A DNA stretch of 64,000 bases, from NCBI GenBank assembly GCA_951406725.2, contig OX597840.1:26846001-26910000 (forward strand), given 5' to 3'. Source of the stretch: Octopus vulgaris. Its lineage: Eukaryota. The notes beneath the pieces are model-generated. The model saw nothing but the letters and a program-made list of their open reading frames with translations. It was not told the DNA's origin and did no database searches. A program made the translations under genes and the position numbers. This document shows positions 8,810 through 62,290 of the stretch, piece by piece; position 1 is the first letter of the stretch, and each line of letters begins with the position of its first letter.

Positions 8810-9486
8810 TTGCCAAATGGAAGATAAACTGGCTGTGATAAACGCCATGAAAAATGTAAAAAGTGGTAGCAATTGCACGATCTTTTGGGATGAGTCGGAC
8901 AACTGTATCGACAATTGTACATAATGAGAACAAGATTTTAGAAGATATTAAATCTGATACCCCAGGGATGAAGAAAGCTGTCATCAATAAGAATAGAGAC
9001 AAAATCTGTGAAGAATTGGAAAGTCTTCTTTCTCTTTGGATTGTTAGGTTTAATCGTTAACGTGCTACTATAGTCAAGAAATCATTCAAGAGAAAGCACT
9101 ATCTTTGAGGATCTGAAGAAAAAATATCCAGATAAGAAAGATGTAGAGCTCAAGGCAAGTTCATGATATTTAAGATGGTTCATGAGATTTAAGCGTCCGC
9201 GAAGTACGGTAAACACCACCAAATTGTATTGGTAAATTTAGATTACTTTTGTTTTACTATACTGTATAAAAAAATAAATATTATTTGTTTGTAAGCTTAA
9301 AATAGGTTTTTTTTGACCAAGTATTATTGAAAATGCATTCATAAATAAACTAGAGAACTGGGAATGGTTATTATCGGTTTAGTCTAGAGACAAGTAAATT
9401 CGTGCAAGCCTAGCCTAGAGACAAGTTAATTTAACATAAATTGTGTCTCCTGAAACCAATTAACGACAGAGGGTGAGGTATGCCTG
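8810..9486 (+). pseudogene. Tigger/pogo (CENP-B-like) transposase remnant with right TIR
   Basis: IARSFGMSRTTVSTIVHNENKI (HTH), EELESLLSLWI, IQEKAL and LKASS...WFMRFK, broken by stops and frameshifts. End 9475-9486 is the reverse complement of CAGGCATACCTC, a Tigger-type terminus. Confidence 0.85.
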
Positions 9487-14846: not shown

Positions 14847-15446
14847 GGCGGCGAGCTGGCAGAAACGTTAGCACGCCGGGCGAAATGCGTAGCCGTATTT
14901 CGTCTGCCGTTACGTTCTGAGTTCAAATTCCTCCGAGGTTGACTTTGCCTTTCATCCTTTCGGGTGTCGATTAATTAAGTACCAGTTACGCACTGGGGTC
15001 GATATAATCGACTTAATCCCTTTGTCTGTCCTTGCTTGTCCCCTTTGTGTTTAGCCCCTTGTGGGTATTAAAGAAATAAGTATTTCATCTGCTGTTACGT
15101 TCTGAGTTCAAATTCCTCCGAGGTTGACTTTGCCTTTCATCCTTTCGAGGTCGATTAAAAAAGTACCAGTTACGCACTGGGGTCGATATAATCGACTTAA
15201 TCCCTTTGTCTGTCCTTGTTTGTCCCCTTTGTGTTTAGCCCCTTGTGGGTATTAAAGAAATAAGTATTTCGTCAACCGTTACGTTCTGAGTTCAAATTCC
15301 TCCGAGGTTGACTTTGCCTTTCATCCTTTCGGGGTCGATTAAATAAGTACCAGTTATGCACTGGGGTCGATATAATCGACTTAATCCCTTTGTCTGTCCT
15401 TGTTTGTCCCCTTTGTGTTTAGCCCCTTGTGGGTAGTAAAGAAATA
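14847..15446 (+). mobile_element. SINE family A, one head plus three tandem ~184-bp bodies
   Basis: Head ggcggcgagctggcagaaacgttagc. Units start at 14895, 15080 and 15264. B-box-like gagttcaaattcc. Probable TSD tattttt(t)gc on both sides. Confidence 0.9.
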
Positions 15447-22209: not shown

Positions 22210-22698
22210 GTGGAGGTACATGGCCTAGAGGTTAGAGCAGCGGTCGAGGGATCGCGGGTTCGAATCTCAGACCGGGCGATGAGTGTGTTTATGAGTGAAA
22301 CACATAAGCTCCACGCGGCTCCGGCAGAAGGTAATGGCGAACTTCTGCTGACGTTTTCGCCACAACTTTCTCTCACCCTTTCTTCCTCCTGCATCTTGCA
22401 GCTCACCTGCGACGGACCGGCGTCCCGTCCAGGGATCGCGGGTTCGAATCTCAGACCGGGCGATGTGTGTGTTTATGAGCGGAACTCCTAAGCTCTACGC
22501 GGCTCCGTCAGAAGGTAATGGCGAACTTCTACTGACTCTTTCGCCACAACTTTCTCTCACTCTTTCCTCCTGCATCTTGCAGCTCACCTGCGATGGACCG
22601 GCGTCCCATCGAAGTGGGGAACCTATACGCCAAGGAAACCGGGAAACTGGCCCTTATAAACCAGGCATAGCTTGAGAAGGAACAAGAAGAAGAAGAAG
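22210..22698 (+). mobile_element. tRNA-headed SINE (family D relative) with internal tandem duplication and (GAA)n tail
   Basis: tggcctagaggttagagc A box and gggttcgaatc B box. Body restarts at 22247 and 22431. Confidence 0.85.
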
Positions 22699-24679: not shown

Positions 24680-25782
24680 ATTCAAATTTTGGCACAAAGC
24701 AAAGTTCATATCTGTCCCGAAAGGACGAAAAGTAAAAGTCGACTTCGGCAGCTTTTGAACTCACCCTGTAAAGACAGATGATATGCCATTAAGTATTCTG
24801 CTCTGTGTGGTTGCGATTCTGACAGCTCGCCGTCTTAATATTTATTTATTTATTACCCACAGGGAGCTAAACATAGAGGGGACAGGCAAAGAGATAAAGT
24901 CGATTACATCGGCCCCAGTGCGTAACTGGTACCTATTTAACCAACCCAGAAAGGATGAAAGGCAAAGTCGACCTCGGCGGAATTTGAACTCAGAACGAAA
25001 AGACATACAAAATACCTATTTCTTTACTGCCCACAAGGGGCTAAACACAGAGAGGACAAACATGGACAGACAAAGAGATTAAATCGATAACATCGACCCC
25101 AGAGCGTAACTGGTACTTTAGTTAATCGACCCCGAAAGGATAAACGGCAAAGTCGAGCTCGGCAGAATTTGAACTCAGAACGTAACGGCAGACGAAATAC
25201 CATTAATCATTACGCCTGGCGTGCTAACGATGCTGCCAGCTCGCAGCCCTAAAATTTTTAGGGAGGTGGCCAGTCGATTAGATCGATCCTAGTACGCAAC
25301 TAGTACTTAATCTATCGAACCTCAAAGGATGAGAGGCAAAGTCGACCTCGGTGGAATTTGAACTCAGAACGAAAAGACATACGAAATACCCATTTCTTTA
25401 CTACCCACAAGGGGCTAAACACAGAGAGGACAAACAAGAACAGAGAAACGGATTAAGTCGATTATACCGACCCCAGTGCGTAACTGGTACTTAATTTATC
25501 GACCCCGAAAGAATGAAAAGCAAAGTCGACCTCGGCGGTATTCGAACTCAGAACGTAACTGCAGATGAAATACCTATTTCTATTTCTTTACTACCCACAA
25601 GGGGCTAAACATAGAGGGGACAAACAAGGACAGACAAAGGGATTAAGTCGATTATATCGACCCCAGTGCGTAACTGCTACTTATTTAATCGACCCCGAAA
25701 TTTGAACTCAGAACGTTGCGGCAGACGAAATACAGCTAAGCATTTCGCCCGGCGTGCTAACGTTTCTGCCAGCTCGCTGTCT
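24680..25782 (-). mobile_element. Cluster/array of SINE family A copies
   Basis: Repeated aaagtcgacctcggcggaatttgaactcagaacg and gaaatacctatttctttactacccacaaggggctaaac. Heads at ~25245 and ~25775. Confidence 0.9.
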
Positions 25783-26023: not shown

Positions 26024-27033
26024 ACCTGTTCTGCAATAAACAGCGACTCACATTTTTTTTTTCAGAAAAAAACACAAAAATATAATTTTAATTTGGATTT
26101 ATGACAGATTAGGAAAACGATTGAACAAGTTGTTCTTAAAACACACTGCAAGGCCTTTCAGCCTTGTGTCAGTCATTTGTAAGCTGGCAGAAGCGTCGTA
26201 TTCCAGGCGGTATTCTTTTTTTCCTTTTTTTTTTTTCGAGTCCTAACGTTCTGGGTTCAAATTCTGCCGAGGTCAAATTTGTTTCTCATTCATTTCAGGG
26301 TTTTGATAAAATTAAGTAACAATCGTGGGATCTTTTCGGTTTGAACGGCAGTTTTTTCTAGCAGTGTCATATGAAATTGTCACCCATAATTATGACCCAA
26401 GTATCGATCTATTGCATTTCAATCTGTTTTAAGGTTAGGGTTAGTTAGGGGGGAAGGGTATCTTTTTATCTTCACAAATGTAAATAAACCCAATCTGTTT
26501 CTTAAATGAGGGACATATTCATACGGCACAGAAAGTTTTCACCTCAATAGACGTCAATGATTGGTTGAAATTGCAGAAATTGAAGAAAAACCAACAACAA
26601 ATATCTTACAAACCATAGAATTTTCTCAATAAAGCCAAGAGAAAAAGATGTTTTATAAACACATTCTACCAGTATACGAAGTTTAACATTTTTTAGTTAC
26701 CTAGAAATTATTTTTAAAAAACTGCCGTTCAAACCGAAAAGATCCACTTGTTCTGCAATAAACAGTGAATTACATTTTCTTCAGAAAAAACATAAAAATA
26801 TAATTTTAGTTCGGATTTATGACAGATTAAAAAAAAGATTGAACAAGTTGTTCTTAAAACACAGTGGAAGGCCTTTCAGCCTTGTGTCAGTCATTTGTAA
26901 GCTGGCAGAAGCGTCGTATTCCAGGCGGTATTCTTTCTTTTTCCGAATCCTAACGTTCTCAGTTCGAATTCTACCGAGGTCAACTTTACTTATCGTTTAT
27001 TTCAGGGTTTTGATAAAATTAAGTAACAATCGT
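26024..27033. repeat. ~290-300 bp direct duplication (26024-26326 and 26746-27033) bracketing the MITE
   Basis: Both copies run from ac(c/t)tgttctgcaataaacag to attaagtaacaatcgt. Confidence 0.9.
26328..26745. mobile_element. MITE with perfect 30-bp TIRs
   Basis: ggatcttttcggtttgaacggcagtttttt at 26328-26357 and its exact reverse complement at 26716-26745. Internal ggttagggttagttaggg. Confidence 0.9.

Positions 27034-33230: not shown

Positions 33231-33235
<5 letters not shown>
33065..33235 (+). mobile_element. Short Penelope-like pLTR element (family P2) with hammerhead-like motif at 33123-33158
   Basis: CUUU-CUGUUGA-A-GAGC(auaa)ACUC-GAAA-CGUA-GAAG. Ends in (TA)n. Confidence 0.65.
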
Positions 33236-33283
<48 letters not shown>

Positions 33284-33393
33284 ACGCTTCAATTCTATGC
33301 TGCTGCCGCATTATGTCGTACGCGAATGAGAGGATTTGCATCCCCAACCAAGAATTTCTGATGTAACACATGTCCTTGTGGAAGTTGTTGTGC

Positions 33394-33471
33394 GCGGCTG
33401 AAGAAGGCCACAGACATACATTATGCATTGTTATAAATCTGTCTAATAAAGGCCCGAAACATATGTACCGC
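33394..33471 (+). ncRNA. Hammerhead ribozyme-like motif with enlarged helix II
   Basis: GCGG-CUGAAGA-aGGCC[41 nt]GGCCc-GAAA-CAUAUG-UA-CCGC, with palindromic ACAUAUGU. Island 33282-33508 lies between (TA)n tracts. Confidence 0.75.
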
Positions 33472-33504
33472 TGAATCCTTGGCATCATGTTTTTATTTTG
33501 ATCA

Positions 33505-33555
<51 letters not shown>

Positions 33556-33556
<1 letters not shown>

Positions 33557-33963
33557 GAGTGGCTGTGTGGTAAGTAGCTTGTTTACCAACCACATGGTTC
33601 CGGGTTCAGTCCCACTGCGTGGCACCTTGGGCAAGTGTCTTCTACTATAGCCTCGGGCCGACCAAAGCCTTGTGAGTGGATTTGATAGATGGAAACTGAA
33701 AGAAACCCGTCGTATATATGTATATATATATATGTGTGTGTGTATGTGCGTGTTTGTGTGTCTGTGTTTGTTCCCCTAGCATTGCTTGACAACCGATGCT
33801 GGTGTGTCTATGTCCCCGTCACTTAGCGGTTCGGCAAAAGAGACCGATAGAATAAGTACTGGGCTTACAAAAGAATAAGTCCCGGGGTCCAGTTGCTCGA
33901 CTAAAGGCGGTGCTCCAGCATGGTCGCAGTCAAATGACTGAAACAAGTAAAAGAGTAAAAGAG
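33556..33963 (+). mobile_element. SINE family B, near full length
   Basis: ggagtggctgtgtggtaag A-box-like, gggttcagtccc B-box-like, CORE-like gcaccttgggcaagtg, internal (TA)n(TG)n and a (gtaaaaga)n tail. Confidence 0.92.
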
Positions 33964-33979
33964 TATATACATACACACA

Positions 33980-38690: not shown

Positions 38691-39827
38691 TGTGGTAGAG
38701 ACCTTATACAACTGGAAAACTACTATAAAATAACCACCATAGGACTGCAAAAATATCTACTTCAGAAGGAAGGAAAACTGATACAAATAGCGGCAAAACA
38801 CAAGCAAAACAAAAAACTGTTCTCAGTATTTAAGGAAGCTGACAAATACAAACAAGAAATCATACCACCTAATAAATATGAAGAAGAAGAAGAAGAAGAA
38901 GAAGAAGAAGAAGAAGAAGAAGAAGAAGAAGAAGAAGAAGAAGAAGAAGAAGAAGAAGAAGAAGAAGAAGAAGAAGAAGAAGATGAAGAAACAACAAAAG
39001 CTATAAAACAAATGAAATGCAAACTAAAAATAGAACAGCAACGAACCATGATAAAACGATGGCAAGAAAAGCCCCTTCATGGTAAATACTGGACTAAACT
39101 AAACGCAAAAGAAATAGACAAAGACAAATCCCAGCAATGGTTGAGAAGCTCAGGACTCAAAGCAGAAACAGAGGGATTTTTAATTGCAGCACAAGACCAA
39201 AGCCTCCCCACCAGAAATTACCAAAAACATGTAATGAAAAGAAATATAACAAGTAACTGCAGAATATGTGGAGATGGACAAGAAACAATAAATCATATTA
39301 TCTCTAGCTGCCCAGTCCTGGCTAAGAAGGAATATATTCACAGACATGACAGAGATGGAACCTACATACATTGGAAGCTATGCCAACATTATGGAATAAC
39401 AACAGAAAAAAGATGGTATAGGCACACACCAGAAAAGGTCACAGAAAACGAGAAAGCAAACATACTCTGGGATATGCCGATACACACAGATAGAGAAATT
39501 AAGGCCAACAGACCAGATATAGTTGTCAAAGATCATGAAGAAAAAAAATGCTTTCTAATTGATGTATCAATACCGGCTGATGACAACGTGTCTCTAAAAG
39601 AAATGGAGAAACTCTCAAAATACAAAGACCTGGAAATAGAGGTAACCAGAATGTGGAATCTAAAAACAGAAACAATTCCTATCATAGTAGGTGCATTAGG
39701 CATGATAAAAAAATATTCAGACAAATACATAACAAAAACACCAGGACTTACAAACACATATAACATACAGAAAATTGCACTACTAGGCACTGCACACATC
39801 CTACACAGAACACTTTCCATACAATAA
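38691..39827 (+). CDS. C-terminal part of the LINE ORF: end of RT thumb, CCHC zinc knuckle and PD-(D/E)xK restriction-like endonuclease (no native start; 5'-truncated)
   Basis: GRDLIQLE (GGRGL-like), PLHGKY, ETEGFLIAAQDQ, CRICGDGQETINHIISSC, RHD, RPDIVV...LIDVSIP...EKLSKYKDL, PIIVGALG. The frame extends upstream of the ATG at 39012 through a poly-Glu tract. Confidence 0.9.
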   Translation, partial: CGRDLIQLENYYKITTIGLQKYLLQKEGKLIQIAAKHKQNKKLFSVFKEADKYKQEIIPPNKYEEEEEEEEEEEEEEEEEEEEEEEEEEEEEEEEEEDEETTKAIKQMKCKLKIEQQRTMIKRWQEKPLHGKYWTKLNAKEIDKDKSQQWLRSSGLKAETEGFLIAAQDQSLPTRNYQKHVMKRNITSNCRICGDGQETINHIISSCPVLAKKEYIHRHDRDGTYIHWKLCQHYGITTEKRWYRHTPEKVTENEKANILWDMPIHTDREIKANRPDIVVKDHEEKKCFLIDVSIPADDNVSLKEMEKLSKYKDLEIEVTRMWNLKTETIPIIVGALGMIKKYSDKYITKTPGLTNTYNIQKIALLGTAHILHRTLSIQ

Positions 39828-50300: not shown

Positions 50301-50387
50301 TGCAGCTGAAGATTGCTCTACATTTTAAATTGATGTAATGATTGCATTGTTCAAATCAATGGAGTTGCATGAAACGATCGTACTGCA
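50301..50387 (+). ncRNA. Hammerhead ribozyme-like motif with enlarged helix II
   Basis: UGCAG-CUGAAGA-[58 nt: uUGC...GCAu]-GAAA-CGAUCG-UA-CUGCA: canonical core, palindromic ACGAUCGU. (TA)n follows 37 nt downstream. Confidence 0.8.
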
Positions 50388-50774
50388 TTACTTCTGGATA
50401 TCGTTGTTGCTTATTTTGATATATATACATACATACATAATACACACATACATACATACATACATACATACATACATACATACATACATACATACATACA
50501 TACATACATACATACATTATATATATACACAGGCACACATATATATACGTGGGCTTGTGATGTGTTTTATCTTTGTGTGTACACCCGCGCAGAAACACAC
50601 ACACACACACACACATACACATTGCTGTAGACATACATACACACACGTGTTTGCTGCTAATTCTTCCTAAACAGCTTTCAATACCATTCCATCCCTCAAA
50701 TACGTTTATCGTTTCTACAATCTACGAAATCCCAGCTAATCTGTAACTGATGTTTCTGTCTCCGCTTTTCATTA

Positions 50775-61590: not shown

Positions 61591-61903
61591 CGGCAAAGGC
61601 GACGAGCTGACAGAAACATTAGGACGCCGGGTGAAATGCTTAGCGGTATTTCGTCTGTCTTTACGTTCTGAGTTAAAATTCCACCGAGTTCGACTTTGCC
61701 TTTCGAGATCTATAAATATATATATTATTGCACTGCGGCTATTTTAGACGGCCGTAATACAATTATATCTTGCCATCCTTGTTACTTATTTGCTTTTGTT
61801 CACATACACATACATATGCACAATCTATATGTATATACATAGACACATACATACATATATATATATATATAATCAAAATAAGCAACAAGTATATCCGAGG
61901 TAG

Positions 61904-61991
61904 AGTGGTACAACTGTTTCATGCTACTTCATTTTATTAAACACTGTAAGTATTACATCAGTTTTAAAATGTCGAGCAATCTTCAGTCACT
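61904..61991 (-). ncRNA. Hammerhead ribozyme-like motif with enlarged helix II (homolog of 50301-50387)
   Basis: Minus strand: AGUGA-CUGAAGA-[59 nt: uUGCU...AGCAu]-GAAA-CAGUUG-UA-CCACU, followed by the tail ...ttgttgcttattttgat(ta)n shared with the 50.3-kb copy. Confidence 0.75.
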
Positions 61992-62136
61992 TATAGAAAT
62001 TTTCCAATCAAACGGACCATGCACATTCTTATCTCTATTTCGTTTGCCAACATTATAAAGTGGGTAGATATATAGACAGAGAGGTCGATTTCATTCCTAA
62101 GAACATGATAGTAGTAAATTTACTCTCTGACTGAGA

Positions 62137-62290
<154 letters not shown>

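What the first reader, a model, noticed from the sequence alone, without database searches (positions are those of the whole stretch)
33282..33508. Third enlarged-helix-II hammerhead with a different insertion sequence
Seen: a 227-bp island between two (TA)n tracts carries GCGG-CUGAAGA-aGGCC...GGCCc-GAAA-CAUAUG-UA-CCGC. It has a perfect ACAUAUGU palindrome and an inner AGACA/UGUCU stem. Its 3' tail (...ttattttgatc..(ta)n) resembles that of the 50.3 and 61.9 kb elements. The same architecture built from different stems suggests selection on structure.
Basis: partly seen in the sequence, partly recalled or inferred. Interest (0 to 1): 0.75.

Follow-up and report, generated by a model that had tools for sequence, protein, structure and literature searches.

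The report
Penelope hammerhead with enlarged helix II
This is one truncated copy of a young, highly repeated animal element, likely the tail of a Penelope-type jumping gene, carrying a predicted self-cutting RNA of a known kind whose second stem is unusually long; cutting is untested.

Summary
The motif is real. The type I hammerhead at 33394-33471 has intact core words, a predicted cut after 33467 and an 8-nt palindrome that folds into a double hammerhead in silico. The island is a 5'-truncated copy of a young, high-copy repeat in (TA)n: sequencing runs of five organism labels hold it, and other copies continue upstream. Its layout matches the hammerheads at the 3' ends of Hydra-clade Penelope-like elements, a known kind; the parent element was not found. 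What differs is a 41-nt insert in helix II (3-10-nt loops in Hydra elements; 29-34 nt in two plant elements). Across the window's three motifs, 7 of 14 pairs change on both sides, supporting selection on helices I-III; evidence for a conserved insert structure is weak. Two leads: an AAUAAA inside the insert 17 nt before the cut, and A-to-I editing of family transcripts that includes the A opposite C at the base of helix II. The editing looks like generic repeat hyper-editing. No RNA ends at the cut were listed. This scan noted palindromic-helix-III and long-stem-II Penelope hammerheads before, on other DNA of this genome.

The parts
33235..33281 (.). 5' (TA)n tract (insertion target); its last two bases also match the longer element in other copies
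33282..33329 (+). Possible last 15 codons and stop of the parent ORF (GRFNSMLLPHYVVRE*); weak, inferred
   Evidence: translation; DNA variants at 33314, 33323 and one upstream site fall in third codon positions (about 1 in 9 by chance); no family match
33394..33397 (+). Helix I, 5' strand (GCGG)
33398..33405 (+). Catalytic core CUGAAGA plus A33405 (mismatched with C33455; edited to I in two RNA-type runs)
33406..33409 (+). Helix II, 5' strand (GGCC)
33410..33450 (+). 41-nt insert closing helix II: 5-bp inner stem in two alternative registers; AATAAA at 33445-33450
33451..33459 (+). Helix II 3' strand (GGCC), C33455 and GAAA core
33459..33466 (+). ACAUAUGU palindrome: 2-bp helix III as a monomer, 8-bp helix III as a dimer (predicted)
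33467..33468 (+). Predicted cleavage site (GUA, after A33467)
   Evidence: no RNA ends listed there
33468..33471 (+). Helix I, 3' strand (CCGC)
33472..33507 (+). 3' tail; the element ends 40 nt after the cut
33508..33553 (.). 3' (TA)n tract, followed by a separate SINE-like repeat
50301..50420 (+). Sister motif, other family: hammerhead with 58 nt between core words, ACGAUCGU palindrome, cut after 50382, tail
61869..61991 (-). Sister motif related to the 50.3-kb one: 59 nt between core words, cut at 61909, AATAAA in the insert

Best explanation
The island is a 5'-truncated copy of a young, high-copy repeat sitting in a (TA)n tract, likely the 3' end (pseudo-LTR) of a Penelope-like retroelement of Hydra-clade type, and its type I hammerhead is predicted to cut after 33467, likely only when two copies pair through the ACAUAUGU palindrome. 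Shown: motif, copy number class, upstream continuation in other copies, (TA)n flanks, compensatory changes between window families, transcription of the family on both strands (editing signature). Inferred: the element's protein nicks (TA)n DNA and starts reverse transcription about 40 nt past the cut site on uncleaved RNA, then stops early, leaving this stump; in a tandem transcript two hammerheads swap strands to form an 8-bp helix III and trim the RNA to unit length, probably slowly and with protein help. The 41-nt insert is most likely a tolerated stem-loop extension of helix II lying in the 3' UTR; a lone copy such as this one is probably inert.
For: Core, helices and palindrome. Unconstrained co-folding of two copies gives the double hammerhead, -35.4 against 2 x -11.8 kcal/mol. 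21 of 24 listed runs, 12 studies, five organism labels hold it. 435-1827 contigs per DNA-type run are laid; mean contig depth at one site is about 100-500 times that of low-depth contigs (rough). Loose ends before 33280 in 3 of 4 runs show one shared upstream sequence, and no run has depth over the 5' TA bases 33270-78. Hydra-clade hammerheads have the same layout: core plus one base, stem II, one base plus GAA, AC..GT helix III, near the 3' end, (TA)n target (PMC8557442 File S1/S2). Palindromic helix III and dimer action are the rule for PLE hammerheads (PMC4209133). Internal RT start on unprocessed RNA, a protein-assisted ribozyme and no reads at the cut were reported for a Poseidon PLE (PMC11167929). 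7 of 14 pairs covary among three motifs.
Against: No RT or GIY-YIG sequence is linked: none among the 150 of about 360 low-repeat frames scanned, and no parent element was obtained. No match of six DNA motifs to Naiad/Chlamys/Hydra consensus text beyond chance hits; the Hydra-1_Obim and Naiad_Ovul 3' ends differ by eye. The ORF-end signal is weak. The conserved G10.1-C11.1 pair of PMC4209133 is not met in the preferred register. Helix I is absent from the whole-island fold. No RNA ends at 33467 listed, and contigs of RNA-type runs cross the site (X14 record 9, X6 record 31). Rfam gives no hammerhead match.
Confidence: 0.7

Rival explanations
1. The parent is a non-coding retrozyme-type unit (a few hundred bases, tandem at source loci) that borrows a Penelope-like enzyme; the island is a truncated monomer of it. 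Ribozyme action would be the same, releasing unit RNAs that can circularise.
For: No ORF was shown upstream; retrozyme monomers are dispersed and derived from PLE pLTRs (bioRxiv 10.64898/2026.07.22.740005); an unchecked scan note reports a long-stem-II retrozyme in TA tracts of this genome (e1-8667016).
Against: Single copy at this locus; no head-to-tail joint in 8 runs (weak, because contigs are short and the unit extends beyond the stretch laid); a possible ORF end at 33282-33329; canonical retrozyme hammerheads have 6-bp helix I and loop-loop contacts.
Confidence: 0.2
2. The insert is a control module: it presents an AAUAAA polyadenylation signal 17 nt before the ribozyme cut, so 3'-end processing and self-cleavage would compete at one site, and A-to-I editing would tip the balance by closing helix II (A33405.C33455 to I-C) and altering AAUAAA.
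For: AATAAA in 2 of 3 inserts (17 and 24 nt before the cut), a one-base variant at the aligned place in the third; background 5-6% per insert-sized stretch; kept in a divergent subfamily's loose ends; U-rich tail downstream. A33405 reads G in 38% (X11) and 18% (X19) of depth and 0 of 136,858 in DNA-type run X2; reading it as G stabilises the fold by about 4 kcal/mol.
Against: Found post hoc in AT-rich DNA; no poly(A) loose end among those shown (33 not shown). Editing at 33405 equals that at 33402 and is below 33313; it comes with 13-16 other A>G and 9-12 T>C places, so it is duplex hyper-editing, during which the ribozyme cannot be folded. The same position is unpaired in all three window motifs and in most Hydra-clade hammerheads. 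No DNA copy with G at 33405 was seen, so edited RNA was not the template of this family. X6 shows no editing.
Confidence: 0.1
3. The motif is a catalytically dead or near-dead relic: the A.C mismatch, 4-bp helix I and lost loop contact abolish cleavage, and the sequence is kept as a binding site for the element's protein.
For: Mismatch at 10.1/11.1, no stability signal; 8 of 9 Xenopus dimer constructs did not cleave; HHR mutants did not impair insertion in vitro.
Against: All core bases are intact in three motifs from two lineages, with compensatory helix changes and three different palindromes; axolotl hammerheads with a U.U at the base of helix II cleave.
Confidence: 0.15
4. This copy has been domesticated as a host regulatory ribozyme at this locus.
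For: None specific; genomic hammerheads with long insertions act in mammalian Clec2 3' UTRs (review passage).
Against: The copy differs from the majority of copies at only two listed sites (33358, 33385), is a monomer with 2-bp helix III, and lies among SINE-like repeats and microsatellites with no gene detected.
Confidence: 0.02

Closest known systems
Hammerheads of Hydra-clade Penelope-like elements (Craig et al. 2021, PMC8557442, File S1/S2)
   Same: Type I; core plus one base, stem II, one base plus GAA; often unpaired 10.1/11.1; short self-complementary helix III; near the 3' end; (TA)n target. The 50.3/61.9-kb motifs share the CTGANGAT-TGC...GCA-TGAA-AC words of the Hydra polyp families.
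   Different: Loop II there is 3-10 nt, here 41 nt with an inner stem; helix III here is a perfect 8-nt palindrome; no sequence match to the one listed octopus Hydra element; no ORF linked here.
Minimal and palindromic-helix-III hammerheads of metazoan PLEs (Cervera and de la Pena 2014, PMC4209133)
   Same: 4-5-bp helix I, palindromic 15.2-16.2/loop 3, extra base after A9, mostly single dispersed truncated copies, predicted dimer action.
   Different: They report a 7-8-bp helix II and a conserved G10.1-C11.1 pair; here helix II is 4 bp plus a 41-nt insert and the base is A.C (the register with G10.1-C11.1 and a bulged C is 3.4 kcal/mol worse).
PLE-X1_sMoe and PLE-X1_sTam hammerheads of spike mosses (PMC8557442 File S2)
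   Same: PLE hammerheads with long loop II (34 and 29 nt), marked there as deviating from the canonical structure.
   Different: Plant, endonuclease-less, 28S rDNA-targeted elements; no sequence relation seen.
Animal non-LTR retrozymes (PMC7229834; bioRxiv 10.64898/2026.07.22.740005)
   Same: Type I hammerhead, short helix III, dispersed monomers, PLE link.
   Different: Defined by tandem units and circular RNA; neither was seen here.

Membership tests
Type I hammerhead ribozyme | Core CUGANGA, GAAA and UH in canonical order | tested here: met
Type I hammerhead ribozyme | Helices I and II flanking the core | tested here: met
   4 bp each; pair probabilities 0.75-0.79 in the isolated motif, helix I 0.0 in the whole island; covariation across three motifs
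Type I hammerhead ribozyme | Helix III | tested here: met
   2 bp as monomer (probability 0.23), 8 bp in the predicted dimer
Type I hammerhead ribozyme | R10.1-Y11.1 base pair | tested here: not met
   A.C in the preferred register, fixed in DNA-type runs; also unpaired in most Hydra-clade motifs
Type I hammerhead ribozyme | Loop I - loop II tertiary contact | tested here: inconclusive
   6-7-nt complements between insert and flanks are at chance level (53% of shuffles); non-canonical contacts not testable
Type I hammerhead ribozyme | Self-cleavage after H17 | not testable with these tools
   no RNA ends listed at 33467, contigs only
Penelope-like element (EN+, Hydra clade) | Hammerhead close to the 3' end | tested here: met
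   cut 40 nt from the end; compare
Penelope-like element (EN+, Hydra clade) | Insertion in (TA)n | tested here: met
   (3' loose ends of other copies also run into TA repeats)
Penelope-like element (EN+, Hydra clade) | High copy number with 5' truncation | tested here: met
Penelope-like element (EN+, Hydra clade) | ORF with RT and C-terminal GIY-YIG endonuclease (RWK, DKT, CxCX5C motifs) | tested here: inconclusive
   none in the window frames scanned; parent element not obtained; 15-codon frame uninformative
Penelope-like element (EN+, Hydra clade) | Tandem or inverted pLTR arrangement at source loci | not testable with these tools
   no genome held; single copy at this locus
Non-LTR retrozyme | Tandem units each with a hammerhead | tested here: inconclusive
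   not at this locus; no head-to-tail joint in 8 runs, a weak test
Non-LTR retrozyme | Unit-length linear and circular RNA | not testable with these tools
   contigs only

The most novel reading that the evidence does not exclude
A group of animal Penelope-like elements has moved its polyadenylation signal into an enlarged helix II, so that mRNA 3'-end formation and dimer-dependent self-cleavage compete at the same site, and host A-to-I editing tunes the ribozyme by turning the A.C mismatch at the base of helix II into an I-C pair: a natural editing-sensitive hammerhead that short-loop descriptors miss.
Probability: 0.1. Interest if true: 0.72.

Novelty: new variant of a known kind. Interest (0 to 1): 0.33.

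Why it matters
Hammerheads at the ends of Penelope-like elements are known, and their role is still open. This family shows that helix II can carry a 41-nt insert in a young, high-copy animal family, beyond the 7-17-nt spacer of the core search in PMC8557442 and unseen by Rfam, so surveys may undercount these motifs. A young family with subfamilies, transcripts and measurable editing is convenient material for asking whether these ribozymes cut in vivo. If the AAUAAA or editing leads held, it would link self-cleavage to mRNA 3'-end formation or to cephalopod-type editing. As it stands this is an unusual member of a known class.

Tried and rejected
No whole genome is held, so copy number and flanks come from run contigs only. 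Rfam: 0 matches at gathering score in the window; 26 weak matches near the finding, none a hammerhead. Exact 21-mer of the motif: 0 matches in metagenome contigs. Degenerate long-helix-II patterns gave 119 metagenome loci (scan stopped at 47 of 64 parts) and 75 viral loci; 0 of 194 had helix I, helix II and the palindrome together, so they are chance matches and also serve as a negative control. No RNA holder is on record; RNA status of X6, X11, X14, X19 is a guess, supported for X11 and X19 by the editing signature. No molecule ends were listed at the cut; contigs cannot show ends. Naiad origin was considered because Naiads target (TA)n and some have half cores 35-50 nt apart; the two octopus Naiad 3' ends read by eye do not resemble the island. 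A pseudoknot between insert and tail is at chance level. The 15-codon frame gave only a 0.76 Atlas hit, below lead level, and no hit in the Craig supplement. The rewired hammerheads noted elsewhere in this genome do not apply: the strand order here is canonical type I. A sequence look-up in earlier findings gave nothing. Lunse et al. 2016 is not held; known only through a review passage. Paper searches listed no paper on animal PLE hammerheads with a 40-50-nt helix II insert, on octopus hammerheads beyond PMC8557442, or on natural editing-gated hammerheads (one engineered design, PMC3923133, listing only). The library lacks most subscription papers, Repbase and Dfam, and I did not see the supplements of PMC4209133, PMC13282606 or the bioRxiv preprint, which may hold such motifs.

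Full report
Observation. The described motif is present at the stated place: GCGG 33394-97, CUGAAGA 33398-404, A33405, GGCC 33406-09, a 41-nt insert, GGCC 33451-54, C33455, GAAA 33456-59, the palindrome ACAUAUGU 33459-66, and CCGC 33468-71, with the predicted cut after A33467. (TA)n tracts lie at 33235-33281 and 33508-33553. A strict descriptor finds 2 motifs in the window and none in 200 block-shuffled windows; a relaxed one finds 6, including the 61.9-kb motif. A degenerate version of the pattern gave 194 loci in metagenome and viral collections, of which 0 had all three helices, so the full arrangement is not a chance product. Rfam does not detect it, and folding energy is no better than shuffles.

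What it is. The window is animal repeat DNA rich in microsatellites and SINE-like repeats; that it is an octopus is my inference from recalled repeat types and from unchecked scan notes, not from a call. No genome is held. The island is held by 21 of 24 listed runs, from 12 studies and five organism labels. DNA-type runs lay 1118, 435, 578 and 1827 contigs. At site 33358 the mean depth per contig is about 100-500 times that of low-depth contigs of the same run, and the summed depth 1,700-23,000 times; the tool warns that depth is not copy number, so I read this only as hundreds to many thousands of copies. This copy departs from the majority at two listed sites (33358, 33385), so the family is young. 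In one search no run has depth on the TA bases 33270-78, and loose ends before 33280 in 3 of 4 runs show one shared upstream sequence (median 134 letters in X11), so this copy is a 5'-truncated piece of a longer element. 3' loose ends of other copies run into TA repeats. One frame, 33282-33329, ends in TGA, and the three DNA variants seen in or just before it fall in third codon positions (about 1 in 9 by chance); it may be the end of the parent ORF, but it matched nothing.

Selection on structure. The 50.3- and 61.9-kb motifs are one lineage (79.5% over 122 nt; inserts 0 of 1000 shuffles). The 33.4-kb insert is at best marginally similar to theirs (31 and 91 of 1000), and the tails share a 10-mer (24 and 14 of 1000). 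[quoted passage not shown] The pair at the base of helix II is a mismatch in all three. Within the 33.4-kb family, 0 of 12 DNA variant sites at 2% or more fall in the 37 core and helix positions of 226 (P=0.11; 0 of 15 at 1%, P=0.06; the variant tables were cut). Loose ends show further subfamilies with different inserts before the same 3' half, but the pieces are not physically linked.

How it most likely works. A monomer has only a 2-bp helix III (probability 0.23). Two copies co-fold without constraints into the double hammerhead with an 8-bp helix III, -35.4 against 2 x -11.8 kcal/mol. This is the known mode for PLE hammerheads, which cleave weakly (PMC4209133, parts 1-2 of 4 read; review passages PMC6765202). 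In the one PLE studied in vitro, reverse transcription starts internally on unprocessed RNA at AT-rich nicks, the hammerhead needs the protein, and no reads end at the cut (PMC11167929, passages and part of section 3). By analogy I infer that the element's protein nicked (TA)n, primed about 40 nt past the cut site and stopped early. The ribozyme would act only in tandem transcripts of source loci; this lone copy is probably inert, and its helix I is not formed in the whole-island ensemble. Cleavage is untested; no RNA ends were listed at 33467, and contigs of RNA-type runs cross it.

Transcription and editing. In one search, X11 shows 14 A>G and 12 T>C places of 40, X19 17 and 9 of 36, the DNA-type run X2 (same organism label) 0 A>G places at 2%, and X6 none. 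Adenosines after G are spared (1 of 25 against 23 of 105, both strands pooled, Fisher P=0.044; three T>C sites that are DNA variants were left out and 4 table rows were not shown), which matches the ADAR preference (PMC5625713 passages, which also report very high hyper-editing in octopus and heavily edited Penelope in lizard). So family copies are transcribed on both strands in duplex context. A33405, opposite C33455, reads G in 38% (X11) and 18% (X19) of depth and in 0 of 136,858 in X2; the essential core adenosines are not among the listed sites. Read as G, it adds a pair and about 4 kcal/mol. I do not take this as a switch: it is edited no more than neighbours, the position is unpaired in most Hydra-clade motifs, and no DNA copy with G was seen.

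A second lead. AATAAA lies at 33445-50, 17 nt before the cut; the 61.9-kb insert has it 24 nt before its cut, the 50.3-kb insert a one-base variant 23 nt before; background is 5-6% per insert-sized stretch. A divergent subfamily keeps it. The spacing and the U-rich tail fit a polyadenylation site (general knowledge). It was found post hoc, and no poly(A) loose end was among those shown.

Comparison with what is known. The closest match is the 3'-end hammerhead of Hydra-clade PLEs: same core-plus-one-base layout, frequent mismatch at the base of stem II, self-complementary helix III, (TA)n target (PMC8557442: passages, sections 6 and 11, supplement parts 2, 24, 52, 53 of 59 and searches). Their loop II is 3-10 nt; two spike-moss PLE motifs in the same table have 29 and 34 nt. 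The listed octopus Hydra and Naiad 3' ends do not resemble the island by eye. It works like a PLE hammerhead; membership in a clade is not shown, because no ORF was linked. A retrozyme parent remains possible (PMC7229834 passages; bioRxiv 10.64898/2026.07.22.740005 parts 1-3 of 5, where 1 of 9 dimer constructs cleaved). Recently active Penelope-like families are reported in Octopus vulgaris without mention of ribozymes (PMC13282606 passages). Passages of PMC13725137 and PMC6155905 added nothing on long inserts. Eight searches listed no paper on this insert size in animal PLEs; the library is incomplete and several supplements were not seen.

Earlier scan notes (unchecked) report dense palindromic-helix-III PLE hammerheads and long-stem-II examples on other DNA of this genome, and edited Penelope hairpins in other genomes. 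They agree with this reading but are not independent support.

Verdict. A real, probably selected hammerhead at the truncated tail of a young Penelope-type family; a new variant of a known kind because of the 41-nt helix II insert. Interest 0.33. The most novel reading not excluded, a polyadenylation- and editing-sensitive ribozyme, has probability about 0.1.

Noticed in passing
window 33554-33712 and 33771-33965: Two-part SINE-like repeat directly after the 3' TA tract; 16 and 14 further matches in the window.
   Followed up: partly
window 38994-39824 (+): Frame with a zf-RVT hit (PF13966, E 1.7e-6), likely a LINE remnant.
   Followed up: no
window 8860-9057 (+): CENP-B N-terminal domain hit (PF04218, E 4.3e-5), likely a pogo/Tigger transposase remnant.
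   Followed up: no
window 62121-62139: Small inverted repeat at the far end of the 61.9-kb island next to its TA tract, possibly the inverted 5' end typical of PLE insertions.
   Followed up: no
window 14895-15446, 22243-22607, 24882-25700: Tandem arrays of about 184-bp units (SINE-like repeats).
   Followed up: no
window 26026-26330 and 26750-27030: Two similar copies of a ~300-bp stretch about 700 bp apart, seen by eye.
   Followed up: no
window 33282-33405 versus 33456-33507: Sense-strand A>G sites are listed at 13 of 30 adenosines in the 5' part, 3 of 17 in helix II and 0 of 14 from GAAA onward; unexplained, perhaps fold-back insertions that leave the tail unpaired.
   Followed up: partly
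window 33405 (runs X11, X19): Both RNA-type runs hold a contig with the same unrelated sequence ahead of 33405: a transcribed copy truncated right after the CUGAAGA core.
   Followed up: no
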